In this document: positions 337-23,282 of the stretch, one piece after another
Position numbering within the stretch: the first letter of the stretch is position 1
How the letters are laid out: the number at the start of each line of letters is the position of its first letter
From: a virus
Lineage: Duplodnaviria; Heunggongvirae; Uroviricota; Caudoviricetes
Reading direction: 5' to 3' (one strand)
DNA length: 23,282 bases
IMG/VR virus record: IMGVR_UViG_2859799533_000007
Notes under the pieces: model-generated
What the model was told of the DNA's origin: nothing
The model's input: only the letters and a program-made list of their open reading frames with translations
Databases searched by the model: none
Made by a program: the position numbers and the translations under genes

Positions 337-440
337 TTTACATCGGTCTACCGCAATGGTCGCATCCTAAATGGGTGCGGTTGGGGGTGATGCTGCCAAC
401 TTACTGATTTAGTGTATGATGGTGTTTTTGAGGTGCTCCA

Positions 441-716
441 GTGGCTTCTGTTTCTATCAGCTGTCCCTCCTGTTCAGCTACTGACGGGGTGGTGCGTAAC
501 GGCAAAAGCACTGCCGGACATCAGCGCTATCTCTGCTCTCACTGCCGTAAAACATGGCAACTGCAGTTCACTTACACCGCTTCTCAACCCGGTACGCACC
601 AGAAAATTATTGATATGGCCATGAATGGCGTTGGATGCCGGGCAACTGCACGCATTATGGGCGTTAGCCTCAACACGATTTTACGTCACTTAAAAAACTC
701 AGGCCGCAGTCGGTAA
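441..716 (+). CDS. insA: IS1 InsA (transposition inhibitor / DNA-binding protein)
   Basis: 91-aa [46 protein letters not shown]…, the canonical IS1 InsA with its zinc-finger-like CxxC motifs. Confidence 0.93.
690..698 (+). promoter_or_regulatory. IS1 programmed -1 frameshift motif (TTAAAAAAC) for the InsAB' fusion
   Basis: A6C run located at the insA/insB overlap, as in IS1. Confidence 0.75.
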
Positions 717-760
717 CCTCGCGCATACAGCCGGGCAGTGACGTCATCGTCTGCGCGGAA

Positions 761-1138
761 ATGGACGAACAGTGGGGATACGTCGGGGCTAAATCGCGCC
801 AGCGCTGGCTGTTTTACGCGTATGACAGGCTCCGGAAGACGGTTGTTGCGCACGTATTCGGTGAACGCACTATGGCGACGCTGGGGCGTCTTATGAGCTT
901 GCTGTCACCCTTTGACGTGGTGATATGGATGACGGATGGCTGGCCACTGTATGAATCCCGCCTGAAGGGAAAGCTGCACGTAATCAGCAAGCGATATACG
1001 CAGCGAATTGAGCGGCATAACCTGAATCTGAGGCAGCACCTGGCACGGCTGGGACGGAAGTCGCTGTCGTTCTCAAAATCGGTGGAGCTGCATGACAAAG
1101 TCATCGGGCATTATCTGAACATAAAACACTATCAATAA
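761..1138 (+). CDS. insB: IS1 InsB (transposase catalytic part; made as InsAB' by frameshifting)
   Basis: ORF …[51 protein letters not shown]… The first in-frame Met is at 761, but the insB frame is open upstream to the A6C site. Confidence 0.9.
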
Positions 1139-1153
1139 GTTGGAGTCATTACC

Positions 1154-3000
1154 GCATAATTGCCAATCTCAACGTAAATATCATATGTATCGCCGGATGT
1201 GTTGATCCAGGCGAAATTCGTTAATCCGACGGCTGTACGCTTCCACAAAGCCCCGGTAATTCCTTTGGGGTTTCCATTGCCTGCTCGTAGAACCAGTTCT
1301 GAAATGCCTGCCTGATGTGGGGAACCGACGTTGTAACCAGCGCCACCAATCAATGCGATGTAAACGATGGAACTCGCTTGTGGCATGGTAACCGTAGCCA
1401 GTTTGAACCACCCAGCCCCGCCAGAGAAAGACATCGTTACTGAATTTAAAGTACCAATATCTTTCGGCGTTAATGTTATATCCGCAGTCAATGCTTTTCC
1501 GTTAACTTTTCGGTTAGATGGCACCCTGCTATTCGCATTGTCATTGGCTGCTTTAACTGCTTTTGGCGTTGCGGCCAGCGATTCACTGGTGCTATCAACA
1601 GCACTGCTAAGTTTCACAACACCTTTAGTTGTAAGGCTTGCGTCTTCCATCGCAACTGCACCGGCAATCTCTTCAGCACGATCAGCAGCAGCTTCCGCAC
1701 GGGTCGCAGCGGATTCAGCAGTAGTTTTGCTCTGAGATGCTGCCGTCGCACTGCCTGCCGCCTCTGTTGCCTTCGTGGATGCCGTCGTGGCGCTGCTCTT
1801 CGCTGCTGACGCTTGTCTGGTCGCCTCATCTTTTGAAGCAGACGCCGATGATGCCGATGACGCCGCCGAACTGGCGGACGATGCGGCAGCCGTTTTTGAG
1901 GATTCTGCGCTGGTTTCCGACGCTTTCGCGTTCGTTTCGGATGTCTTCGCTGCGGAAGCAGACCTCGCTGCTGCGCTGGCCTGTTCAGTGGCTTCGCCAG
2001 CCTTCGTTGTGGCTGTTGAAGCAGACGATGCGGAGCTTTCTGCCGATTTTCCGGCGGCGGTGGCACTGGCTGAGGCCTGCCCGGCACTTGTTGACGCTGC
2101 ACTGGCAGACGACGCAGCCGCTGTTTTTGAGCCTGCCGCAGCTGAGGCACTCTGTTCCGCTGCCGTTTCAGAAGACCTGGCGTTTGTCTCAGACGTTTTT
2201 GCCGCCTTCGCAGAATTTGCTGCCGCCGTTGCCGAGGAAGCTGCGCTGCTGGCGCTCGAGGCTGCGTTCGTTTCTGATGATTTTGCCGCCTCTTTTGAAG
2301 CCGACGCATCCCGTGCTGAAGTGGCTGCTTCTGACGCTTTCGTGGTCGCGGTGGATGCAGAAGTGGCTGCTGATTGTTGTGACGCTGCCGCATTCGTTTC
2401 TGACGTTTTCGCCGCACCGGCACTGGTAGCCGCCGCGCTTTTTGAGGACTCTGCAGCGGCAGCACTTTTTAATGCTTCAGTGGCCTTTGTTGATGCCGTT
2501 CCTGCGCTGGAAGACGCTGACTGAGCCGACGACGCGGCCTGTCCGGCTGACGTGCTGGCGGCACGTGCTGAGGCTGCAGCATCGGTTGCATGAGTTGCCG
2601 CCTCGCTGGCTGATTTTTTCGCGGCTGCCGTATTCTGTGCAACCGCGGAGGCGTTACGTGACACCTCTTCCACCATCTGCTCAAAGCGGCGCAGTGCCTC
2701 CGGTCGGACATCATCCTCCGTCATGGCACCGAGAAAATCATTCAGCGTACCTGGTCTGGAACCTTCATAGACGGTAATGGTCCCGGCATGTGAAGGCGGA
2801 AAACCTTCAACCAGCAGGGTGACGCTGTACTGACCATGCTCAACATCCATGCTGTAACGTCCGGCTTCATCCGGATTTTCAGAGGCCACCGTGTTCACCA
2901 CCACCGTGCTGCTGGTTCGTCTGGCCTTCAGCACAATGGTGCAGTTCTGTACTGGTTTTCCTGTGCCATCTTTAAGCACGCCAGAAATTTTTACTGTCAT
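1154..3000 (-). pseudogene. stf: Side tail fibre gene (lambda Stf-like), 3' end removed by IS1
   Basis: N-terminus MTVKISGVLKDGTGKPVQNCTIVLKARR… closely resembles lambda Stf. The ORF runs into IS1 at 1153 and its last ~6 codons and stop (1132-1134) are IS1 sequence. Confidence 0.85.
1668..2643 (-). repeat. Ala/Ser/Thr-rich low-complexity coding repeats inside stf
   Basis: Reiterated motifs such as AAKTSETNA… and SASSAS… in the translation; they create long spurious ORFs in other frames and on the opposite strand. Confidence 0.7.
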
Positions 3001-7392: not shown

Positions 7393-7428
7393 GAAAACCC
7401 CGGTATCAGCAGATACCGGGGTTTTCTT
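7393..7428. terminator. Perfect 14-bp-stem hairpin flanked by A- and T-runs (bidirectional terminator-like)
   Basis: AAAGAAAACCCCGGTATC-AGCA-GATACCGGGGTTTTCTTT, located in the enlarged I-J intergenic region. Confidence 0.7.
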
Positions 7429-7496
7429 TCATGCCCACCGATAATCCTGTTGGTTAAAACCGGTAATGGCATAAAAATTCTGAATATCTTCACATT

Positions 7497-7524
7497 TTCA
7501 CACACTGACTGTGGCGCTTATAAT
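7497..7524 (+). promoter_or_regulatory. Sigma70-like promoter (TTCACA, 16-bp spacer, TATAAT), antisense to the tail operon
   Basis: -35 at 7497-7502 (5/6 to TTGACA) and a perfect -10 at 7519-7524, in an AT-rich intergenic insert. Confidence 0.5.
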
Positions 7525-7530
7525 TTCGCT

Positions 7531-7628
7531 GCGTTAGTGTTTTTTTGCCCGAGTAACAAAAACAACTCCTTCACATTGATCTTCATTTGTCTGTCCCCGC
7601 AGCTCCGCGATCACTGCGGGATTTTTTT
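7531..7628 (+). ncRNA. Candidate ~100-nt small RNA (promoter to terminator, no convincing ORF)
   Basis: Bounded by the promoter at 7497-7524 and a plus-strand terminator (stem CCCGCAG/CTGCGGG at 7596-7620, then T7 at 7622-7628). No ATG-initiated ORF inside. Prediction only. Confidence 0.35.
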
Positions 7629-7633
7629 ATGTT

Positions 7634-8305
7634 TTATCCCTGTCGCCCGATAACCACGACCTTTCCGCCCCCGCCTTCATCACGGGTGCTGATGTCCTGG
7701 GATATACGGCGGGAGCCAACCAGCATTTCCCCGTAAGGCACCGGCATCGGGTTCCCCTGGGCAATCATGTTATCCAGCGAGGAAAAGTACGTGTTCTGTC
7801 TGCCGTTATCCGTTGCGCGGTAATCCGGTGTTTTTGCCTTCGGGGCCAGCATCTGGGCCACACCGCCCAGAATCATGCTGGCTCCAAGTGAAAACAGCAT
7901 CGTGGTGGCAGAAAAACCACCGGCTGCCAGGGCTGAACCCCATAACGCCATTGATGCCCCGGCAGTGAAGAAAGAGCCCACGATGGCTGCCGCCCCCAAC
8001 ACAATCTGCAGTCCACCCTTTCCGGCCCCGGCCAGTCGCGGCACAATGTGGATGACCGTTCCCTCACCCAGCTGTTCGTGAAGACGGGCATACACCGCCT
8101 CCGGTGCCGTGTCATCACCGGCAATACGTATCTGGTACCAGCCTTCGTTCATCTGACGGCGAAAGCCCGGCATCTGCATCGACAGGGCGCGAATGGCTTC
8201 CGCTGCCGTGTTCACATACAGGCTGAGGCGGCGGCCAAATCGTTGCAAATCCCCGTGAAGGCAGATGGTGAAGCAGCTCACCGTTGCCGCAGTAAATGGT
8301 GGCAT
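7634..8305 (-). CDS. I: Tail assembly protein I
   Basis: …CLHGDLQRFGRRLSLYVNTAAEAIRALSMQMPGF…IHIVPRLAGAGKGG… resembles lambda I. Start chosen at the Met at 8305 (223 aa, as in lambda); the longer track ORF is read-through of the K overlap. Confidence 0.85.
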   Translation of the reverse strand: MPPFTAATVSCFTICLHGDLQRFGRRLSLYVNTAAEAIRALSMQMPGFRRQMNEGWYQIRIAGDDTAPEAVYARLHEQLGEGTVIHIVPRLAGAGKGGLQIVLGAAAIVGSFFTAGASMALWGSALAAGGFSATTMLFSLGASMILGGVAQMLAPKAKTPDYRATDNGRQNTYFSSLDNMIAQGNPMPVPYGEMLVGSRRISQDISTRDEGGGGKVVVIGRQG

Positions 8306-8864
8306 GGTTCGGTACCGAAGCACCAAAGCAGCACAGCAGAATATCGCCCGGCTGTGCAGAGGACAGGGGCACCCGGTAAAAGCCGGTGACCGCCATATTG
8401 TCCAGGTACAGGTTCTGGCCGTTGCGCCACCAGTCATCCTCGCGATGAAAATCCGGCATATCAATTCCCGCCAGATGGTATGCATCCCGGAACAGCGTGT
8501 AACAGTCCGTCACCCCGTGCTCAAAGCGCCGTCCTGTCAGATGTGGCACACAGCGGAATTTATGAATTTCCCCCCGGCAGACCAGCCACCAGGGCAGTGC
8601 GCTTTTTATCTGCAGCCGCCGGTCAGCCTCGCTCAGCCAGGGCAGCTCACCGGGATGACTGTGGACCAGTGCCACAATCTCCCCCTGCATCTCTGCCCGC
8701 AGCCAGTCTTCCGGTGCGATACGAAAATACGCCTCCGGCTCTGCAGAAATATTCACACAAGGGATATACCGCTCCCCCTCCGGCGTGCTTATCACGAAGC
8801 CGCACGACTCCGCAGGCGCACACCGCCGGGCATGCGCCAGAATCGCTGATTCAGTCTGTGTCAT
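8115..8864 (-). CDS. K: Tail assembly protein K (MPN/JAB plus NlpC/P60 domains)
   Basis: MTQTESAILAHARRCAPAESCGFV…HSHPGELPWLSEADRR…GVTDCYTLFRDAYHLAGI… Start ATG at 8864. The C-terminal ~45 residues look non-native and overlap I by ~190 bp, so the 3' end is uncertain. Confidence 0.8.
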   Translation of the reverse strand: MTQTESAILAHARRCAPAESCGFVISTPEGERYIPCVNISAEPEAYFRIAPEDWLRAEMQGEIVALVHSHPGELPWLSEADRRLQIKSALPWWLVCRGEIHKFRCVPHLTGRRFEHGVTDCYTLFRDAYHLAGIDMPDFHREDDWWRNGQNLYLDNMAVTGFYRVPLSSAQPGDILLCCFGASVPNHATIYCGNGELLHHLPSRGFATIWPPPQPVCEHGSGSHSRPVDADAGLSPSDERRLVPDTYCR

Positions 8865-9573: not shown

Positions 9574-9902
9574 CAGTTCACCACCTGCTTAAACTCCGCG
9601 CTGAACTCAACGCGCAACATCCCGACCCGCGCAGACCACCCGGCACAGGTCACCTTTATCTGCCGGTATGCATAAGGCGGTGTCCACAGAAACGCCTTCC
9701 AGCCACCGTGCTCTGCCAGGAATTCCTCCAGATGCCGGGCTTCCTCCCGGGTCACGGAAAGCGTCACCCGGTATGTTTTCAGGTCAGCACTCAGCCCTGC
9801 CGCCATACGCTGCGAATAGCCGTCACCAAAACGCACTTCACGCACCGATGGCCGCGAGTTCACCTCCATATCCGGTTTCACTTTCCAGCGAAAGGTTTTC
9901 AT
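9573..9902 (-). CDS. M: Minor tail protein M
   Basis: 109-aa ORF MKTFRWKVKPDMEVNSRPSVREVRFGDGYSQR…, same length and position as lambda M. Confidence 0.9.
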   Translation of the reverse strand: MKTFRWKVKPDMEVNSRPSVREVRFGDGYSQRMAAGLSADLKTYRVTLSVTREEARHLEEFLAEHGGWKAFLWTPPYAYRQIKVTCAGWSARVGMLRVEFSAEFKQVVN

Positions 9903-12509
9903 CGCCCGCTCCCCGATAACAGACCGCCATCACGCAACTGCAGCCGGAGCTCATCCTGCGCACCTTTACGGGCCATCTCATACACCGCTTTCATCAGCTG
10001 CGGCCCTGCCTGCCCGTTGGGGCCGTCGTTCTGAATCACCACGTGATTGTTCTGATTAAAATTAATGCCTTCGGCCCGCCGCATCTGCGCCGGACTTCCG
10101 GCACCGCCGACATAACCACCTTCCGCATACCCGCGCATCAGACGATACAGGTTGCCGACACCAATCCGGCTGGTCGCCTCCTTCGTGAAGACAAACTCCC
10201 CGCGATGGACAATCCCCGCAGGCTCATATTTGCCGCCCGTCCCGTAAATCCTCCGGTCGCGAAATGGAAGTTCGCCGCCGCAGCCTGAATGGCCGTCCCC
10301 GTGGAAGCGGATGCGCCACCACCGAAAGCACCACCAATGGCGCTGCCGATACGCCCGACAATCCCCACCATCGCCTGCTTCAGAAAAATCTCTGTCAGCA
10401 TGGAGAGCACGGAACGGGTGAAACCACGCCAGTTCTGTTCGCTGCCGGTCAGCATCGCCGCCATATTCTGTGCAATACCGTCAAAGGTCTGCGTGGCCAC
10501 ACTTTTTACCTGCGAAAAACTGTCCGTCGCACTTTCCGCCCACTCGCCCCAGCCGGACTTCATCCCGGCCATCCAGCTTCCACGAAGCTGCTCCTCCGCA
10601 GACCAGGTGTTCTTCAGTGCAGATGTGGCCTTCGCCAGCGCAGCCGGATTATCACCGTACACCTCACGAAGGCGCTGCTCTTCCGACTCCCGCTGCGCCT
10701 GACGGTCGGTGAGTCCGCGGGCTTTTGCGCTGATTGCCGCCTGCTTCGCGCTCTGCTGCTGTTCAAACCGCGCCGCCTGCTGTGCCAGCTCATTCAGCCG
10801 CTTCTGGTGTTCAATCTTGTCTCCCAGCTCAGCCAGCTGGCGTTTGTACTCCAGCGTCTCTTTCTCATGAGCCAGCAGGGATTTTTCCTGCCAGGATAAC
10901 TGCCGTTTCGTGGCAGCCTCTTTCAGGACCGCATACTGACTTTCCGCCTTCCATAAATCACGGCGCTGCCGGCTGATTTTCTCATTCGCACCGCTGTGTT
11001 TTTCCAGCGTCCTGAGCTCAGCTTCAAGGGCAAGCAGAGCCTCTCTTGCCTGCTCCTCTTCCCTCTCCCCGGCAGAGCGCGTTTTCGGTGATGTATGCTT
11101 TTTACCTGTCAGCTCTTCAGCCAGACGGCTGACGGCTTCCTGCTGCCCAAGACCTTTGCTGACGCCTGTTGCACGCGAGCGGTTGATGTACCCCATTTCC
11201 CCCTGGCGTATACGCGCATCCCGTTCCGCAATGGATTTTCTCAGCGCCAGTTCATCGCGTTTTGTTTTCTCAATAAATACGCGGTTCTCTTCTGCCAGTT
11301 CACCAAACAACGCACCAACGCCGGGCACATTCTTTGTCGTTTCCCAGGCTGACTGAATAAATTCAGCCAGTGCCAGATCCCCTGCACAAGCAGCAGCTTC
11401 ACCTGTTCAACGGTTCCGGCCACCACGTCAGTGATCAGACTGAGTGCCCCCAGTGTATGATCACCTATCCATGCCCATGCGTCAGAAGTCCAGGTTTTAA
11501 CATCGTCCCAGATTTTTTCCACCGGCGTGGCCGCTTTATCAAGTTGCTCCAGACGTGCATTCATGACATCCGCAAACAGGGACATCGCCTCCGTCACCGC
11601 AGCCTGTTTACCTTTCGTGCGCTCAAGCTCATCAATATGGCGTAACTGGGAAACGCTCAGGAAGTTATACTGCTGATTCAGGGAGGCCAGCGCCTTCACC
11701 GGATCTGCTGCAATCCCTTCAAAGGCTTTTTCCACCTTCCCGGCATCGTCCCCCACCGTCTGCAGCCATCTCTGAGAGGTTTCCCCCATGATCCGTAGCT
11801 GCCCGGCGGTATATTTCCCGCTTTCTGCCAGACGGGCCAGATTTTCTGCCGCCTGTCTGATACCACCACCGGCTTCATCGCTGATCACCCCGGCCATTTT
11901 CCACAATTCTGCCGTTGTGGTGGCAGCCGCCCCTCCGGTCAGGATCAGTGAACGCAATAAGGCCCGGTCAGCCTGCTCTGCCTGCCAGGCGGCGGCAGCA
12001 AGCACGGCCAGTACGGCAACCCCGCCACCTGCCGCCACACGGACCACCGACATAAATCGTCCCAGCTCACCGGCATTCCGGGCATTTTCAGCCAGTGCAT
12101 TTGCCGTATCTGACAGCGACTCCTCTGATGATTCAGAGGCATCCCTGATCCCGAGAAGTTCCTCCTTCAGCAGGGTAAGCAGGCTGAGCGGTTCACCGAA
12201 TGAATCGCTGATCTGCCCCCCCTGCTGCAGCATGATAAGGAAGGGATTCTGACCACCGGCAAGCTGAGTGACAATATCCGTGAACTGTGCGGGCAGTGTG
12301 CGCATGGCAGCCTTATACTGTCCGACTCATATCCCGGCTTTTTGTGCAGCCAGCGCCTGTCGGCTCAGCCCCTGTTCAACAGTACTGGCGGTTTTTCTGG
12401 CATCCGCCTCCAGACTGGAAAAATGACGGCGTACCCGGGCCATCTGTTCATCAAACCGGGCCGCATCCAGACTCAAATCAATAACCAGATCACCCGCTGG
12501 CTGGGACAT
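9899..12509 (-). pseudogene. H: Tail tape measure protein H, disrupted by one in-frame stop and two frameshifts
   Basis: N-terminus MSQPAGDLVIDLSLDAARFDEQMARVRRHF… is H-like, then an in-frame TGA at 12327-12329. Reading continues in the same frame to ~11390, shifts frame near the C4 run 11389-11392, and shifts again at the C3 run 10241-10243 before the H-like C-terminus …QNNHVVIQNDGPNGQAGPQLMKAVYEMARKG…. Confidence 0.85.
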
Positions 12510-12903
12510 ATCTCACACCTCCGGAAATCCCCGCTGAAGCCATCATTAATGCAACATCATCCTCGCTGACATCCACCACATTCGCAGAAGGTGAAATATC
12601 GCGCCCTCCGTCCCCTCCGAACCGGACGCCTCCGGCAACTCCTGTCGCTTTCTGCATCAGCATTTCTTCCTCGTCCGGCATCTCCGTCTGCTCTTCCTCA
12701 CACGCTGGAGCAAGCAGACTGAAATCCGCCGGATGCATATCCGGATCGCCAAAAAACAGGCTGAGTACGGCGTACATCAGCCCGGAAAAATGAGCGTCCA
12801 GTTGGGTATCCTGAAAATAATGCGTGCAGTAAAAACGTCGCCAGTCGGCATATTCGGTGGATGTCATCCCGGCAAGCATGGCGCGCCAGTCGGGTCTCCC
12901 CAT
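12490..12903 (-). CDS. T: Tail assembly chaperone T domain (normally made only as the G-T frameshift fusion)
   Basis: …RPDWRAMLAGMTSTEYADWRRFY… followed by an acidic stretch and GGVRF/GGVRYV motifs; its stop lies 17 nt after the H start codon, a lambda-like overlap. The frame is open upstream to 12927. Confidence 0.75.
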   Translation of the reverse strand: MGRPDWRAMLAGMTSTEYADWRRFYCTHYFQDTQLDAHFSGLMYAVLSLFFGDPDMHPADFSLLAPACEEEQTEMPDEEEMLMQKATGVAGGVRFGGDGGRDISPSANVVDVSEDDVALMMASAGISGGVRYVPASG

Positions 12904-13321
12904 CTCTCGCGCCAGTTTCAGGACAAGTTACCGGCTCAGTCGCTTCTGCTTTCCCGGTTTGTTCAGGATCGGCATCGTGCCGGTTATCCAGCATACCTGA
13001 AAGATAAAGCACCCGGTTCGTTGCCTGATTCAGTGCATCAGCAGGCCATCCCAGCATCACTTCACGGCGGATCTGCTGCATCTCTGTCTCCGGAGAGGCC
13101 AGAGTGCCTTTGAGGGAATGGGTATGCCATAGCGACATCGCCACAAGCAGGGATGCCGTTTCCAGATATCGCTGGTTAATGTGCACGACATCATGCTTCG
13201 TTGTCTCCTGTTGTTCTGCGTCTGAAACAAACTTTATATAATCAAACCGCTGCAGCGCAGACAATTCGGAAAGCGTGACAGACACACCGTTATATTCAAA
13301 TTGTTCTGTTTTCAGAAACAT
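12698..13321 (-). CDS. G: Tail assembly chaperone G; N-terminal ~125 aa G-like, 3' extension probably spurious
   Basis: MFLKTEQFEYNGVSVTLSELSALQR… resembles lambda G. The ORF is 207 aa (lambda G is 140 aa); the part beyond the GGGAAAG heptamer is Arg/Cys-rich and looks like an out-of-frame reading of the T region. Confidence 0.6.
   Translation of the reverse strand: MFLKTEQFEYNGVSVTLSELSALQRFDYIKFVSDAEQQETTKHDVVHINQRYLETASLLVAMSLWHTHSLKGTLASPETEMQQIRREVMLGWPADALNQATNRVLYLSGMLDNRHDADPEQTGKAEATEPVTCPETGARDGETRLARHACRDDIHRICRLATFLLHALFSGYPTGRSFFRADVRRTQPVFWRSGYASGGFQSACSSV
12949..12955 (-). promoter_or_regulatory. GGGAAAG slippery heptamer (putative G-T -1 frameshift site)
   Basis: Plus-strand CTTTCCC at 12949-12955. 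In the frame that reads it as G GGA AAG a TAA follows 7 codons later (12928-12930), lambda-like, but that frame is neither the N-terminal G frame nor a -1 partner of the T frame. Confidence 0.5.
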
Positions 13322-16887: not shown

Positions 16888-16944
16888 AAATCAGTTCCTT
16901 TCATTAAGAAATCAGTCAGGCCAACGCGGTGGCCTGATAACGTG

Positions 16945-17292
16945 TTACGGCAGCGCCGCGTGACTCAGGGCTGTGCCGGCAAAGGCATTTGCCTTTTTGT
17001 GTTCATCCCCACTGTCAGGCCAGCGGATTGCCTCCGTCGCAAAGGTCCCCGACTTGTAATAGGTCAGCACCGTCTCTGTGCCTTCAAGCGGCAGTACCAG
17101 TATGCCAACCGCACTACCGGCTTTCTGTCCATCCCAGACCACCAGTTTCCCGGTGGCTTCATCCAGCATCAGGGGCGTCAGAGCCGGTGTTGCCGAGGAA
17201 ATCCCGCTGCTGCCTGTGGCGGTGTGAGCCGGATCATTACCGGCAAAAATACGTACTTCCGCACGCTGTTCAGTGATGGTTTTCGTCACCAT
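16945..17292 (-). CDS. D: Head decoration protein D
   Basis: 115-aa ORF …NDPAHTATGSSG…TPLMLDEATGKLVVWDG…AVGILV…TYYKSGTF… resembles lambda D. Confidence 0.9.
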   Translation of the reverse strand: MVTKTITEQRAEVRIFAGNDPAHTATGSSGISSATPALTPLMLDEATGKLVVWDGQKAGSAVGILVLPLEGTETVLTYYKSGTFATEAIRWPDSGDEHKKANAFAGTALSHAALP

Positions 17293-17328: not shown

Positions 17329-18833
17329 TCATGGCATGGCCATGAGCATTTTCACGTCCGCATCACCGTCTGCTGACGTCTGTGACACGCCACCCCGCAC
17401 CGCTGCCGGTGAATGATTCGCCATGAAATGTTCAAACAGGGCGGTTGTGGATGCAGAGACCGGTTCGGCCTTACCTGATCCCGCAGCCAGCACCGCCCGG
17501 GCGTTCTCCACGGTCATTCCCGGGCAGGCCGCCAGTTTTTCAGCCTGCGCTTCTGCCCCTTTTGCCTCATCCAGGGCCATGATCTGATCACGAAGTGAGG
17601 GCCCGGCATCCGCCAGTGGTGCAGCCGCCAGGATCGGGCGGGCTTTTTCCACCGTCATCTCCGGCATCGCCGCCAGCGTTGCCGCCAGTTGTTCACGACC
17701 GTTCGCTTCTTCACACGCCATAATGCGATCGGCTTCACTCTGCGCGGATGCCACCGGCTGCTGCGGTGCCGCCGCGGCCAGAATCGCCCGGGCCTGTTCA
17801 ACGCTCATGCCCTGTTGCCCTGCCAGCATCGTGGCAAGCTGTTCACGTCCTTTCGCTTCCTGGCATGTCAGGATCCCCATCACTCGCTGGTTCTCCTGCA
17901 CGGCGGCTTCCGTTGCAGTTAATTGCGGCATAGTGCCTCCTCTGACATTACTGTTCAGCGCCGTGGCCATCACACTGATGGCATCCGACGCATTGATTAA
18001 TTCATCCGCCAGCCCGGCCTCAATGCCGGACTGACCTTCAAAAACAGCGGCCTCTGTTCCCGTGACTGCATCAACAGACAGACCGGTAAACATCGCCACT
18101 TTTTCGGCAAACATCCGGCGCGCCGCATCAATCCGCTGCTGCATGTCCTGGCGAACCTCTGCCGGCAACGCTTCAAACTGATTGCCATCCACCTTGTGCG
18201 CCCCTGAGTAAATCAGCGTGATATCCACACCGGCCTGCGCCAGATGACCGGCATAGCTGACATGGCTCATCATCACGCCAATGGAACCGATACGGGATGT
18301 CTGGGTAACCAGCCGTCGGGAGCAGGCCGACGCCAGCAGCATGGCCGCAGAACAGGCCGTGTCATTACACAGTGCCCAGACCGGCTTCTGCTGCCGGAGG
18401 CGGTAAATCATGTCAGCGCAGTCAAACACGCCGGCGGCCTGCCCGCCCGGACTGTCAATGTCCAGCAGTATGCCCCGCACCTGGCTATCTGCCATTGCCT
18501 GCTGAAGACAGGTGACAATGCCGTCATAGCCAGTCATTCCGGAAAATGGCCGCATCCCCCCAGCCGGTGCACCAGCGTGCCGGTCACCGGCAGTACCGCA
18601 ATACCGTTCACCACCCGGTAAACACGGGCCGGTCGTTTACCTCCGGCCATGTACTCGTCCGTTTCAGCCAGCATCCCGGGAGCATCAAGCTGTACCTGCT
18701 GTTGCGGTACCGAAAGACTTGCTGCCCCCATCTCGCGCCCCAGCGCGCAAAAGAAAACCCGCGCATAGGCGGGCTCCAGAAGCAGCGGTTCATTGAATGC
18801 TGCTGCAATAATGTGTGAAAGATTACGTCTCAC
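17329..18833 (-). pseudogene. C: Head maturation protease C with nested scaffold Nu3 (S49/ClpP-like), frameshifted
   Basis: N-terminal segment (…AAFNEPLLLEPAYARVFFCAL…) is in a different frame from the rest (…SGMTGYDGIVTCLQQA…KPVWALCNDTACSAA…). The frames join at the C6 run at 18556-18561. Confidence 0.85.
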
Positions 18834-19595
18834 GTGGTGTTGTCTCCTCTTCCGGCCTGCGACTCTCCGCTATCTGCTGCTGATACGCCTGCGCTATCCA
18901 CACCGGACGTGAGAGTCCGGCTTTTTCCCGCTCTGCAGATTCCCTGACCTGCTGGCAGAAAATGTCCTGATAATCCTCGCCCATCAGCGCCAGCTCTTTC
19001 TCATACGTGCTCAGTCCGGCCTCAATGCGCATCACTGATTCCTGAACCTCCTTGAGCCCGTCAATGGCCATTCTTCCGGCTCCAATCCACTCAGCCCGTG
19101 ACCAGGCTGATCGCGCCTGATAAAAATCAAACCGTGCCCGTGGCGGACGAATAATCCCCGAAGAAGTGCCTCTTCCAGCCAGCAGGAAAACATCTGCGTG
19201 GCCAGCCGGGACGCAATAAATTTTCGCCGCCCCATAAAATAGCGCCACGACTCATTGGCGGATGCGCGGGCACTTGAGTAACTGACCTTCGAGTAATCAC
19301 GGGACAACTGTTCGTAGGAAACGCCAAGACCGGCGGCGATATACCGCAGCAGCGCCTGTTCAAGCGCCGAAAATCCATTGTCTGAATCCTGCGCGGTCTG
19401 AAGTTTCAGATCATCACCGGGGAAAAGGTGCGGAATTTTGACACCGCCCAGCATCACGCTATTCGTGTCATACCAGGTGGAGAACTTATCCAGAATATTA
19501 ATAAGCGGATTATCCTTCTGCCCCTGCGGCGCACCGGCGATATATTCAAAGGCCTTTTCGGTATCAAGGTCACTTTCAATCGTCGCTGCATACAT
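18823..19595 (-). pseudogene. B: Portal protein B, 3' half only, with an internal frameshift
   Basis: Two frames carry portal-like sequence and join at the C4 run 19156-19159. Only ~257 codons are present (lambda B is 533 aa); upstream of 19595 the frame reads AT-rich non-coding sequence. Confidence 0.75.
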
Positions 19596-19783
19596 CGCCT
19601 TTATGAAAAGACAGGAAAAAATAAAATTTAAAAACAGTACATTACGAATGCTCAGACCTATCGTTTAAAGGAGTCGCAATACACACTGCAATACACGATT
19701 ATTTATAAGATGAGCGGCATCCGTCATAAAGCTGGTGGATGCTTTTTCTATGCATATATGCACAGTTTTAGTGGGCGTTAATG

Positions 19784-19807
19784 TCGATATAGGGATCCCC
19801 ATATCGA
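19784..19807. repeat. 24-bp near-perfect palindrome TCGATATAGGGATCCCCATATCGA (operator-like)
   Basis: Differs from its reverse complement at one symmetric position pair only. Confidence 0.6.
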
Positions 19808-20025
19808 GATTGGATACCAGGCTTTTTTAATCAGGCTGGTGGGCTTTACCTGTTTTGTATGAGTGGTCATCATGACCATGTCATAACAAAAACCCCATAT
19901 TCGTGGTTTTTCTGTGTCGGGCTATTCTGTCGTTGCTGTGCTGATTTGGCTGGTGGGCTGAATCATCATTACGGCGATGCAGCTATGTAGACGTTCCGGC
20001 CTCCTCAAATTGAGGATTGTGGAAG

Positions 20026-20187
20026 AATCAATGGGTTAGTCTTACTTTCCCGACATCCCCCAATGGGGGGTTTCGAAACAATCAATAGCTTAGGCTTACT
20101 TCCCCGATTTCCTGCATTGCAGGTTTTCGAAATAATCAATGGGTTAGGCCATCGTGCAATTTTGCACTTTGCCAGCCAGCGCAATGT
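20026..20187. repeat. Tandem array of three 54-bp direct repeats, each with an internal GC-rich hairpin
   Basis: Units begin AATCAAT at 20026, 20080 and 20134. Units 1 and 2 share ~40 of 54 positions, with the hairpin arms changed in a compensatory way (CCCCC-AAT-GGGGG versus CCTGCA-T-TGCAGG); unit 3 diverges after position 15. Confidence 0.7.
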
Positions 20188-20397
20188 CGCGTTATCAGTC
20201 CTCAGATGTGAGGGATGTAGCCAGCTTTTCCCCCAGTGGGGGATATCCAGCACCGACGGCTTAACTGTGCGTGCCAGCACAAGGTAGCCTTGAACTACTT
20301 ACTGCATCCCATCTTACAGGCCGTGCCTTCCTGCTTAACTTTTTGCAATGCAACAAGTCAGCCAGCGCAATTTTGCGTTATCGGGAATATCAGCAAG

Positions 20398-20679
20398 TTA
20401 CCGCCGCAATCGTTCCGGCTTCTTCCACTGGTAAGTATTTTTCGCGCTCTCCCTCCGTTGTTGAGAACGGCGACGATATGCCAGCAACTCAAGGACTCTT
20501 GTTCGTATGTTGCGCATATCCACGCCGTTAAGCTCAATACCGTCACGGCGCATCACCTCAGCCACTACACGCACATAATTATCTGCGGTCACGCTGTCCG
20601 GCTGCGTGGCCTGTTCGTCATGCTGCTTGCTGATTCCACAAGCACGGCGGATTAATCGCAGTATTTCGGATTCAGTCAT
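20398..20679 (-). CDS. Hypothetical small basic protein (93 aa)
   Basis: ATG-initiated ORF with coherent charged composition (MTESEILRLIRRACGISKQHDEQ…); weak RBS; I do not recognise a homologue. Confidence 0.4.
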   Translation of the reverse strand: MTESEILRLIRRACGISKQHDEQATQPDSVTADNYVRVVAEVMRRDGIELNGVDMRNIRTRVLELLAYRRRSQQRRESAKNTYQWKKPERLRR

Positions 20680-20803
20680 AGCGTACTACGTTACTTATCT
20701 TTATTCGGCTGCAACTTATCCGGTACGTTTCCGGCAGTTTCCATCAGATAATCGGACAGCTGAGGTGTACTGGCAATAGCGGACACTACCATTTGTTCTT
20801 TTT

Positions 20804-21622
20804 TTAAGCAGCCATCTGATGATATTTTTCCCTGAAGGCTGCCGGGGAGATATTCCCCAGACGAGAGTGACGACGCTGACGATTGTAGAAAATCTCAATG
20901 TATTCCCGTATTACTGAGATGGCTTCATCCCGGTTATTAAAACGATAGTGGCTCAGGCTCTCATTTTTCAGCGTTCCCCAGAAGCTTTCCATCGGAGCGT
21001 TGTCGTAACACTGACCTTTACGCGACATTGATGTTTTCAGACCAGACTGCTCCTGTATGACCCGGTAATCGTATGCGCAGTACTGTGAACCTCGATCAGA
21101 GTGGTGGATTAGCCCGGCAGGTGGGCGCTGGCTCCTGAGCGCCATAAACAGGGCTTTACCTGTCAGCTCTTTTGTCATGCGCTCTCCCATGGCGTAGCCG
21201 ACAATTTCGCACGTATAAACATCTTTGATGCCAGCGAGGTACAACCATCCCTCCTGTGTGGCAACATACGTCAGGTACGCCACCCAGACCTGATTTGGTG
21301 CTGTAGGAGCGAACGTCTGGTTCAGCAGATTTGGCGCAACTGGCAGATTGTGGTTCGGGTTCGTAGTCGCTCTGAACTTGCGTTTCTGCTTACAGCGTAG
21401 CCTTAGCTCCTTACGAAGACGTGCCAGTCGGTCACGACCAACGATGATGCCATTCTCTGCCAGCTCCGTCTGGAGCCGCCGGGTTCCATATGTTTCGCGA
21501 GTGCGGATATGTGCCACCTTAATCTCCAGTTTTAGCCGCTCATCACTTTGTTTTCTGTCTGAGGGTTCATGCTGTACCCAGTTGTAATAACCGCTCCTGG
21601 ATACACCAAATACCTGACACAT
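20804..21622 (-). CDS. IS3-family transposase OrfB (DDE domain)
   Basis: 272-aa ORF …HHSDRGSQYCAYDYRVIQEQSGLKTSMSRKGQCYDNAPMESFWGTLKNE…; the frame is open upstream toward the frameshift window. Confidence 0.9.
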   Translation of the reverse strand: MCQVFGVSRSGYYNWVQHEPSDRKQSDERLKLEIKVAHIRTRETYGTRRLQTELAENGIIVGRDRLARLRKELRLRCKQKRKFRATTNPNHNLPVAPNLLNQTFAPTAPNQVWVAYLTYVATQEGWLYLAGIKDVYTCEIVGYAMGERMTKELTGKALFMALRSQRPPAGLIHHSDRGSQYCAYDYRVIQEQSGLKTSMSRKGQCYDNAPMESFWGTLKNESLSHYRFNNRDEAISVIREYIEIFYNRQRRHSRLGNISPAAFREKYHQMAA

Positions 21623-21657
21623 CGCTTCAATGGGAAATTGTTGTCGCCATTGTTCGA

Positions 21658-21960
21658 TTAACGCGTATTTTTCAGCGACTCCTGTGCAAAATACGCTGTT
21701 GCTTTTTTTAATATATCTCGCTCAAGGCGAGCTTCATTTAACGCCTTACGCAGTTGCAGAATTTCAGATTCCAGTTCAGCCACCGTGCGGGAACCAGGAG
21801 TACCGAGCCCTTTTCTGGCGGCGGTAACCCATTGTCCTAAAGTGCCTTCAGGAAGGGATAATCGGGAAGCGCCTTCACTGATCGAAAGTTGATTTTCAAG
21901 AACCGTTCTGACAGCTTCGGCTTTGAACTCTTTAGAGTAACGTTGGTTTTTTCTGCTCAT
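21658..21960 (-). CDS. IS3-family transposase OrfA (helix-turn-helix plus leucine zipper)
   Basis: 100-aa ORF MSRKNQRYSKEFKAEAVRTVLENQLSISEGASRLSLPEGTLGQWV…; an A7G slippery run (plus-strand T7 at 21703-21709) sits near its 3' end. Confidence 0.9.
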   Translation of the reverse strand: MSRKNQRYSKEFKAEAVRTVLENQLSISEGASRLSLPEGTLGQWVTAARKGLGTPGSRTVAELESEILQLRKALNEARLERDILKKATAYFAQESLKNTR

Positions 21961-22115
21961 TATTAGCTCCTTCTGATGCCATTCTATTTCAGGAAGGAGT
22001 GTCCGTTAAACTCAGGCTACCTCAATCAGCGCCAGTCAGTCAGCCGGAGCAAAAACAGAAGCCCCACTCATTCCGGAACAACCTTCTTAATAACCCATTT
22101 CAACGAGAAAATCCT

Positions 22116-22385
22116 ATGTCAGAAATAAAATCGCTGGTCACTGCTGAGGCAGTGAAGGAAGTCCTGCGCTCTGAAGAAGTCCGGAGCGCACTGAAACAGC
22201 AACTTCGGCAGAACCTTGAGGCGCGTCTTGATGCAGAAGTGGATTCAATTCTGGATGAACTGCTGGGCGCACCGACTGTTCCGGAGCCGGAAGGCATTGC
22301 GGATGACAGTGCTGTTTCAGATGGCGTCGGGTCTCAGCCTGACGGTAGTGAAGGGCCTCAGCCTGACGGCGAAATGATGATGTAA
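22116..22385 (+). CDS. Hypothetical acidic protein (89 aa) upstream of the holin
   Basis: ATG at 22116 within the longer track ORF; MSEIKSLVTAEAVKEVLRSEEVRSALKQQLRQNLEARLD… with an acidic C-terminus; weak RBS. Confidence 0.45.
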   Translation: MSEIKSLVTAEAVKEVLRSEEVRSALKQQLRQNLEARLDAEVDSILDELLGAPTVPEPEGIADDSAVSDGVGSQPDGSEGPQPDGEMMM

Positions 22386-22460
22386 CCATGCGCAGGGGGT
22401 GTCGGTGTGAGCTGATGCCCCACTTGTTGTTGTGAGCTTCCGGATTGCGGGAGACGGGGT

Positions 22461-22620
22461 ATGTACCAGATGGAAAAAATCACAACAGGTGTGTCATACA
22501 CCCGTCAGCGGTGGGAACGGGCTACTGGTTCCTGCAGTTGCTGGACAGGGTTTCCCCGTCTCAGTGGGCGGCAATAGGCGTACTGGGGAGTCTGCTGTTT
22601 GGGCTGCTGACATATCTGAC
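22461..22620 (+). pseudogene. Class II holin (phage 21 / Stx-phage S-type), frameshifted and cut by an IS element
   Basis: [14 protein letters not shown] in one frame continues as [39 protein letters not shown] in another; the shift is at the C3 run 22501-22503. The dual-start MYQM motif and transmembrane core are typical; the C-terminus is replaced by IS sequence from 22621. Confidence 0.75.

Positions 22621-23282
<662 letters not shown>

What the first reader, a model, noticed from the sequence alone, without database searches (positions are those of the whole stretch)
12327..12329. In-frame TGA at codon 61 of the tape measure gene H
The H N-terminus reads …LAAQKAGI, then TGA, then continues in the same frame VGQYKAAMR… with clear H-like sequence on both sides. 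This is a substitution, not a homopolymer indel, so it is independent evidence that the tail module is genuinely inactivated, unless the codon is suppressed.
Basis: seen in the sequence. Interest (0 to 1): 0.45.

Follow-up and report, generated by a model that had tools for sequence, protein, structure and literature searches.

The report
Nonsense mutation in dead prophage gene
A single real base change turns serine codon 61 of a lambda-type tail tape measure gene into a stop codon, but the gene sits in a Shigella prophage remnant that was already unable to make phage, so this is ordinary gene decay.

Summary
On the minus strand, window 12329..12327 is TGA, codon 61 of the gpH-like tape measure gene (ATG at 12509), with H sequence in frame on both sides. 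The ancestral codon is TCA (Ser). Eight orthologous copies of the same remnant in sister chromosomes and three E. coli/Stx-phage relatives have TCA, and lambda has TCC. The window is 100% identical to CP026866.1, and exact protein matches are named Shigella boydii. The TGA is not a base-call error: an independent Logan contig (ERR200282, seen in 4 samples) matches 1880 of 1881 bases and includes the TGA. That contig has G5 where the window has G4, so one of the two H frameshifts is not reproduced. All indels among the sister assemblies are single G/C losses in runs of four or more, a pattern typical of long-read miscalls. The TGA is therefore the best-supported lesion in H. No SECIS-like fold, tRNA or conservation of the stop supports recoding. 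The remnant was already dead: no terminase, a 5'-truncated portal gene, the G/T slippery site deleted (31 nt), a 91-nt deletion in K, and IS1 in the tail fibre gene. Verdict: real, recent, strain-specific and probably neutral. Low interest.

The parts
12327..12329 (-). Opal stop (TGA) replacing Ser61 (TCA) of the tape measure gene H. The changed base is window 12328.
   Evidence: Unique to CP026866.1 and Logan ERR200282 among the fetched loci.
9899..12509 (-). Lambda gpH-type tail tape measure gene. It is 870 codons long once the three lesions are reverted.
   Evidence: Pfam TMP_2 and Tape_meas_lam_C. The reverted sequence is 100% identical to the H protein of CP026867.1.
12327..12509 (-). The 60-aa N-terminal fragment, which is all that normal termination at the TGA would produce.
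12303..12305 (-). First in-frame ATG after the stop (Met69), preceded by AAGG 5 nt upstream. A conceivable re-initiation site; this is inference only.
11380..11383 (-). G-run reading G4 where all relatives and the independent contig read G5. An apparent -1 frameshift in H, probably an assembly miscall.
10242..10244 (-). G-run reading G3 where all eight relatives read G4. A second apparent frameshift in H, seen only in this assembly.
12490..13321 (-). G and T chaperone genes with a 31-nt deletion (junction at 12927|12926). The deletion removes the G stop codon and the AAAAAAG slippery site. The G ORF is 207 aa and T is now in the +1 frame.
8115..8864 (-). Gene K with a 91-nt deletion between 9-nt direct repeats (junction 8259-8267). 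The last 43 residues are replaced by out-of-frame sequence.
386..1153 (.). IS1 (768 bp) truncating the tail fibre gene (1132-3000) at about residue 632 of 1056.
18823..19607 (-). 3' remnant of the portal gene B. The first ~269 codons and the terminase genes are absent, and IS3-family elements follow from about 19,608.

Best explanation
This is a genuine, recent, lineage-specific nonsense mutation in the lambda-type tail tape measure gene H: Ser61 TCA to opal TGA, a C-to-G transversion on the coding strand. The gene lies in an IS-bracketed prophage remnant next to yecE/yecD in a Shigella boydii-type chromosome (CP026866.1). Translation of H ends after 60 residues, so no tape measure protein is made (inferred from the sequence). 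The remnant had already lost the ability to form virions or tails, so the mutation is expected to be selectively neutral, one step in the decay of a cryptic prophage (inferred). Shown here: the base change, its ancestral state, its reproduction in an independent assembly, its absence from sister strains, and the older shared lesions. Inferred: that it has no phenotype, and that the two neighbouring G-run frameshifts in H are assembly miscalls rather than mutations.
For: TGA at codon 61. TCA in E2863, EDL933 and an Stx1 phage, and in all eight sister copies of the same remnant. Ser61 is invariant, including in lambda gpH. The window equals CP026866.1 at 100% over 20,183 nt. Logan contig ERR200282_622, seen in 4 samples, matches 1880/1881 nt and carries the TGA. 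The exact TGA 34-mer is absent from the GTDB representatives and IMG/VR, and no complete E. coli genome matches the region perfectly. Against the nearest sister, CP026867.1, the TGA is the only substitution in the tail module, and reverting three events gives an identical 870-aa H. The remnant has no terminase, a truncated portal gene, and IS elements at both ends. It also has the G/T slippery-site deletion and the K deletion, both shared with the older S. boydii CDC 3083-94 genome.
Against: I could not establish the identity or sequencing platform of ERR200282 or CP026866.1. The four Logan samples could therefore be re-sequencings of one strain rather than separate isolates. Neutrality is inferred and was not measured. 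If the G-run frameshifts are artefacts, the rest of H is intact, so a low level of read-through or re-initiation product cannot be excluded from sequence alone.
Confidence: 0.9

Rival explanations
1. The TGA is a base-call or consensus error in the assembly, and the real codon is TCA.
For: The same assembly shows four single-G losses in G-runs that look like miscalls, so its consensus is not perfect. The allele is rare.
Against: An independently assembled contig from another run (ERR200282, 4 samples) has the same G. The error pattern in these assemblies is homopolymer deletion, not substitution in non-repetitive sequence.
Confidence: 0.03
2. The UGA is decoded, either as selenocysteine, by a suppressor tRNA, or by programmed read-through, so full-length H is still made.
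For: The reading frame continues with perfect H sequence after the stop. With the G-runs restored, the TGA is the only defect in H.
Against: The 76 nt from the stop onward fold no better than shuffled sequence (z = 0.16). Rfam gives no SECIS or other relevant hit, and the window has no tRNA. Every relative has a serine codon here, so the stop is a new mutation rather than a conserved recoding site. G/GT and K are broken anyway.
Confidence: 0.02
3. Ribosomes terminate at the TGA and re-initiate at Met69 (ATG at 12305, AAGG 5 nt upstream), giving an N-terminally shortened tape measure protein of about 802 aa.
For: There is an in-frame ATG 8 codons after the stop with a weak Shine-Dalgarno-like AAGG. 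A gene caller placed a start there (L007 565-1881).
Against: There is no expression evidence. The missing 68 residues are highly conserved from lambda to this element, which suggests they are needed. The tail module lacks a working G/GT chaperone and an intact K, so a product would have no assembly pathway.
Confidence: 0.04

Closest known systems
Phage lambda gpH (tail length tape measure protein, NP_040595.1)
   Same: Same gene order, V-G-T-H-M-L-K-I-J-lom. Same Pfam domains, TMP_2 and Tape_meas_lam_C. 81% identity over the first 100 residues, with Ser61 conserved.
   Different: Interrupted by an opal stop at codon 61 and, in this assembly, by two G-run frameshifts. It lies in a remnant that cannot make phage.
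Orthologous prophage remnant in Shigella boydii CDC 3083-94 (CP001063.1) and sister chromosomes (CP026867.1, CP026762.1, CP026814.1, CP026797.1, CP049281.1)
   Same: Same truncated portal gene, same 207-aa G ORF, same K deletion, about 99.6-99.9% nucleotide identity.
   Different: H is an intact 870-aa ORF with TCA at codon 61 in all of them.
Pseudogenes of cryptic lambdoid prophages in E. coli/Shigella (for example, the frameshifted tape measure gene annotated in E. coli E2863)
   Same: Point lesions accumulate in structural genes of defective prophages. PGAP flags the E2863 copy as 'frameshifted'.
   Different: Here the lesion is a nonsense substitution confirmed in a second data set, rather than a frameshift.

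Membership tests
Lambda gpH-type tape measure protein | Pfam TMP_2 (PF06791) N-terminal and Tape_meas_lam_C (PF09718) C-terminal domains | tested here: met
   TMP_2 E = 2.9e-42 on the 354-aa piece; Tape_meas_lam_C E = 6e-22 on the 396-aa piece.
Lambda gpH-type tape measure protein | Position between the G/T chaperone genes and M-L-K-I-J | tested here: met
Lambda gpH-type tape measure protein | One uninterrupted ORF of about 850-870 codons (needed for a functional member) | tested here: not met
   stop at codon 61; a stop at 61 remains even with both G-runs restored.
Selenocysteine or programmed UGA recoding site | Stable stem-loop (bacterial SECIS) just downstream of the UGA | tested here: not met
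   MFE -18.8 kcal/mol against a shuffle mean of -19.3, z = 0.16; no Rfam match.
Selenocysteine or programmed UGA recoding site | UGA (or Cys) conserved at the position in homologues | tested here: not met
   serine codons (TCA or TCC) in all 12 other loci and in lambda.
Defective (cryptic) prophage remnant | Loss of genes essential for virion production | tested here: met
   no match to terminase (A, Nu1), W, or the first 269 residues of the portal protein. IS3-family transposases take their place.
Defective (cryptic) prophage remnant | Same lesions fixed in related strains, showing vertical inheritance of a dead element | tested here: met
   the truncated portal gene, 207-aa G and K deletion are shared with CP001063.1 and others.
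Long-read homopolymer miscall (applies to the neighbouring frameshifts, not to the TGA) | Single-base loss inside a homopolymer run, private to one assembly | tested here: met
   every indel is one G/C lost from a run of four or more. Sites 11383 and 10244 occur only in this assembly.
Long-read homopolymer miscall (applies to the neighbouring frameshifts, not to the TGA) | Not reproduced in independent short-read data from the same lineage | tested here: inconclusive
   Site 11383 is G5 in L007. Site 10244 has only indirect evidence: the 79-aa ORF it creates is found in no other assembly. The B and C sites recur in other assemblies. The platforms of the runs could not be verified.

The most novel reading that the evidence does not exclude
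If both G-run frameshifts are artefacts, H is intact apart from one opal codon. The remnant also keeps intact V, U, Z, FII, E, D, M, L, I and J ORFs across many Shigella strains. A low level of read-through or a restart at Met69 might then supply tape measure protein to a domesticated tail-like structure, or to a co-resident lambdoid phage.
Probability: 0.02. Interest if true: 0.5.

Novelty: already known. Interest (0 to 1): 0.1.

Why it matters
Biologically it matters little. It is one more point lesion in a prophage remnant that had already lost its terminase, half its portal gene, the G/GT frameshift site, the end of K and the tail fibre gene. Its practical value is for annotation. In this window the nonsense substitution is the trustworthy lesion, while the homopolymer 'frameshifts' in H (and perhaps in B and C) should not be counted as independent pseudogenising events until checked against reads. 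The TGA could also serve as a marker SNP for the sublineage that includes CP026866.1 and the ERR200282 group.

Tried and rejected
1. **Exact TGA-bearing 34-mer in public collections.** There was no match in the GTDB species representatives or IMG/VR. This shows only that the allele is rare.
2. **Look-up of the 60-aa product.** It returned 13 contigs, but seven of the nine places shown are E. coli draft contigs that simply end at nt 180/181 of H, with no stop codon. They end there because a mosaic boundary lies at about gene nt 128 and assemblers run a k-mer's length into the repeat. I rejected these as evidence for the TGA.
3. **Literature searches.** Searches for CP026866, ERR200282 and the sister accessions found nothing. 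Species assignment therefore rests on source names of exact protein matches and on my recollection that CP001063 is S. boydii CDC 3083-94.
4. **Testing the homopolymer-artefact idea on the head genes.** This was not clean. The C-gene fragment occurs in 183 index blocks of all contig sizes, and the B fragment in five long chromosomes plus one Logan contig. Those two sites may be real hot spots or recurrent miscalls, and I leave them open.
5. **Promoter/terminator scan around the site.** It gave nothing above shuffle expectation.
6. **First protein alignment.** It failed because of the stop codon and was repeated with X in place of the stop.

Full report
**Observation.** The genes of this window run on the minus strand. 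The + strand reads TCA at 12327-12329, which is TGA on the minus strand. The ORF starting with ATG at 12509 translates as MSQPAGDL...LAAQKAGI, then a stop, then VGQYKAAMRTLPAQF... in the same frame. The stop is codon 61 (12509 - 180 = 12329). The ATG is the same start that RefSeq uses for the intact EDL933 tape measure gene.

**What the gene is.** The pieces of this ORF hit Pfam TMP_2 and Tape_meas_lam_C. The gene lies between the G/T chaperone genes and M-L-K-I-J-lom, in the lambda order. Its first 100 residues are 81% identical to lambda gpH and 99% identical to the H proteins of EDL933 and the Shigella sister strains. It is a lambda gpH-type tape measure gene.

**Ancestral codon.** Nucleotide alignments with E. 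coli E2863, EDL933 and an Stx1-converting phage show TCA (Ser) where the window has TGA, so this is a single C-to-G change on the coding strand. Lambda has TCC (Ser) at this position. Ser61 is invariant in the five intact homologues aligned.

**Source and relatives.**
- The window is 100% identical over 20,183 nt to NCBI CP026866.1, a 4.68-Mb chromosome.
- Exact matches to its G, K and T proteins are named Shigella boydii, including ACD07415.1 of S. boydii CDC 3083-94.
- No complete E. coli RefSeq genome matches the H 5' region perfectly; the best is 99.5%.
- The same remnant, with the same truncated portal gene, occurs in at least eight other chromosomes: CP001063.1, CP026867.1, CP026762.1, CP026814.1, CP026797.1, CP049281.1, CP026872.1 and PTES01000001.1.
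- In seven of those eight, H is called as one 870-aa gene.
- A position-by-position table shows that window 12328 differs from all eight relatives.
- Pattern counts over all fetched loci give the TGA allele only in CP026866.1 and one other contig, against 12 loci with TCA.

**Is the base real?** The other contig is Logan ERR200282_622 (L007, 1,881 nt, the same contig in 4 samples). It matches the window at 1880 of 1881 positions and carries the TGA. I take this as independent confirmation of the base. I could not establish what strain or platform ERR200282 is.

**The neighbouring frameshifts.**
- The single difference between L007 and the window is a G-run. L007 has G5, as all relatives do, and the window has G4 at 11380-11383. 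That site is the first of two frameshifts that break H in the window. The second is G4 to G3 at 10242-10244.
- Across the sister assemblies, every indel in the 11.6 kb compared is the loss of one G/C from a run of four or more. Each CP026xxx-series genome has a private set (seven in CP026872.1), and the older CP001063.1 has none.
- The 79-aa ORF created by the second site exists in no other assembly in the 153-billion-gene index.
- This is the signature of residual homopolymer under-calling in long-read assemblies, a known cause of false pseudogenes (PMC12007338, abstract). That these are long-read assemblies is my inference from the pattern and from memory, and I did not verify it.
- For the B (19160) and C (18562) sites the evidence is mixed, because the same fragments recur in other assemblies.
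- Reverting the TGA and the two G-runs yields an 870-aa protein 100% identical to H of CP026867.1. Reverting only the G-runs leaves the stop at codon 61 as the sole defect.
- So the TGA is the best-supported lesion in H, and possibly the only real one.

**State of the element before the TGA arose.**
- The window runs from a yecE/yecD flank (1-385) into IS1 (386-1153). IS1 truncates the tail fibre gene at about residue 632 of 1056.
- At the other end, the portal gene lacks its first ~269 codons. W, the terminase genes and all early genes are absent and replaced by IS3-family elements.
- Within the tail module, 31 nt containing the G stop codon and the AAAAAAG slippery site are deleted. G has become a 207-aa ORF, and T lies in the +1 frame rather than the -1 frame.
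- K has a 91-nt deletion between 9-nt direct repeats.
- Both deletions are shared with S. boydii CDC 3083-94 and the other sisters, so they predate the TGA.
- From established knowledge of lambda tail assembly, gpG and the frameshift product gpGT are required chaperones for gpH, and gpH is required to initiate and measure the tail tube. This module could therefore not build tails even with an intact H.

**Mechanism.** Translation of H ends after residue 60, and no tape measure protein is made (inferred). The mutation arose after the split from the CP026867.1 lineage, where it is the only substitution in the tail module. It is most likely neutral, because the element was already non-functional (inferred).

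**Alternatives considered.**
- A base-call error is contradicted by L007.
- Recoding is unsupported. The downstream RNA folds no better than shuffled sequence, Rfam finds nothing, the window has no tRNA, and the stop is not conserved.
- Re-initiation at Met69 (AAGG 5 nt upstream) is conceivable, but there would be no working assembly pathway to serve.

**Comparison with what is known, and verdict.** This is a standard nonsense mutation in a structural gene of a cryptic lambdoid prophage in Shigella, a genus known for IS expansion and pseudogene accumulation (general knowledge). It is not novel. The useful outcome is a correction of emphasis. The substitution is real, whereas the homopolymer frameshifts around it should be treated as suspect. 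The firm evidence that the tail module is dead comes from the 31-nt G/T deletion, the 91-nt K deletion and the IS1 insertion. Interest is 0.1.

Noticed in passing
window 12926-12927 (minus-strand genes G 12698-13321, T 12490-12903): A 31-nt deletion relative to EDL933 removes the G stop codon and the AAAAAAG slippery site used for the G/GT -1 frameshift. G becomes a 207-aa ORF and T ends up in the +1 frame. The deletion is shared with S. boydii CDC 3083-94 (ACD07415.1).
   Followed up: yes
window 8259-8267 (gene K, 8115-8864, minus strand): A 91-nt deletion between 9-nt direct repeats (CATCTGCCT) replaces the last 43 residues of K with out-of-frame sequence overlapping gene I. It is shared by the close sister chromosomes.
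   Followed up: yes
window 19160, 18562, 11383, 10244, plus private sites in L019, L022, L023: Every indel among nine copies of this remnant is the loss of one G/C from a run of four or more. Each CP026xxx-series assembly has its own set, and CP001063.1 has none. This looks like systematic homopolymer under-calling, which would inflate pseudogene counts in these genomes.
   Followed up: partly
window 16906-17009 (D/E junction region): Five of the seven substitutions separating the window from its nearest sister, CP026867.1, cluster within about 100 nt. This may be a small recombination patch.
   Followed up: no
L006, L008-L013 (E. coli draft contigs): Many draft-assembly contigs end at nt 180 or 181 of H, one or two bases before the mutated position, producing spurious 60-aa 'partial' proteins identical to the truncated product. 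This is explained by a mosaic boundary at about nt 128 plus k-mer overlap, not by a stop codon.
   Followed up: yes
window 386-1153 and 19608-23282: IS1 (768 bp) truncates the tail fibre gene. IS3-family elements (matches to IS600 and IS911) replace the head-proximal end of the prophage. In CP026866.1 and CP026867.1 the IS1 is followed by isochorismatase/IS110 genes, whereas other sisters have tail fibre (Collar/Phage_fiber) genes there. This suggests an IS1-mediated rearrangement.
   Followed up: partly
L022 (CP026872.1) 7394-7735: The S. dysenteriae-labelled copy keeps Ser61, but its H is cut to 113 aa by a G7-to-G6 change at the site equivalent to window 12222. This is another private G-run event in the same gene.
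   Followed up: partly
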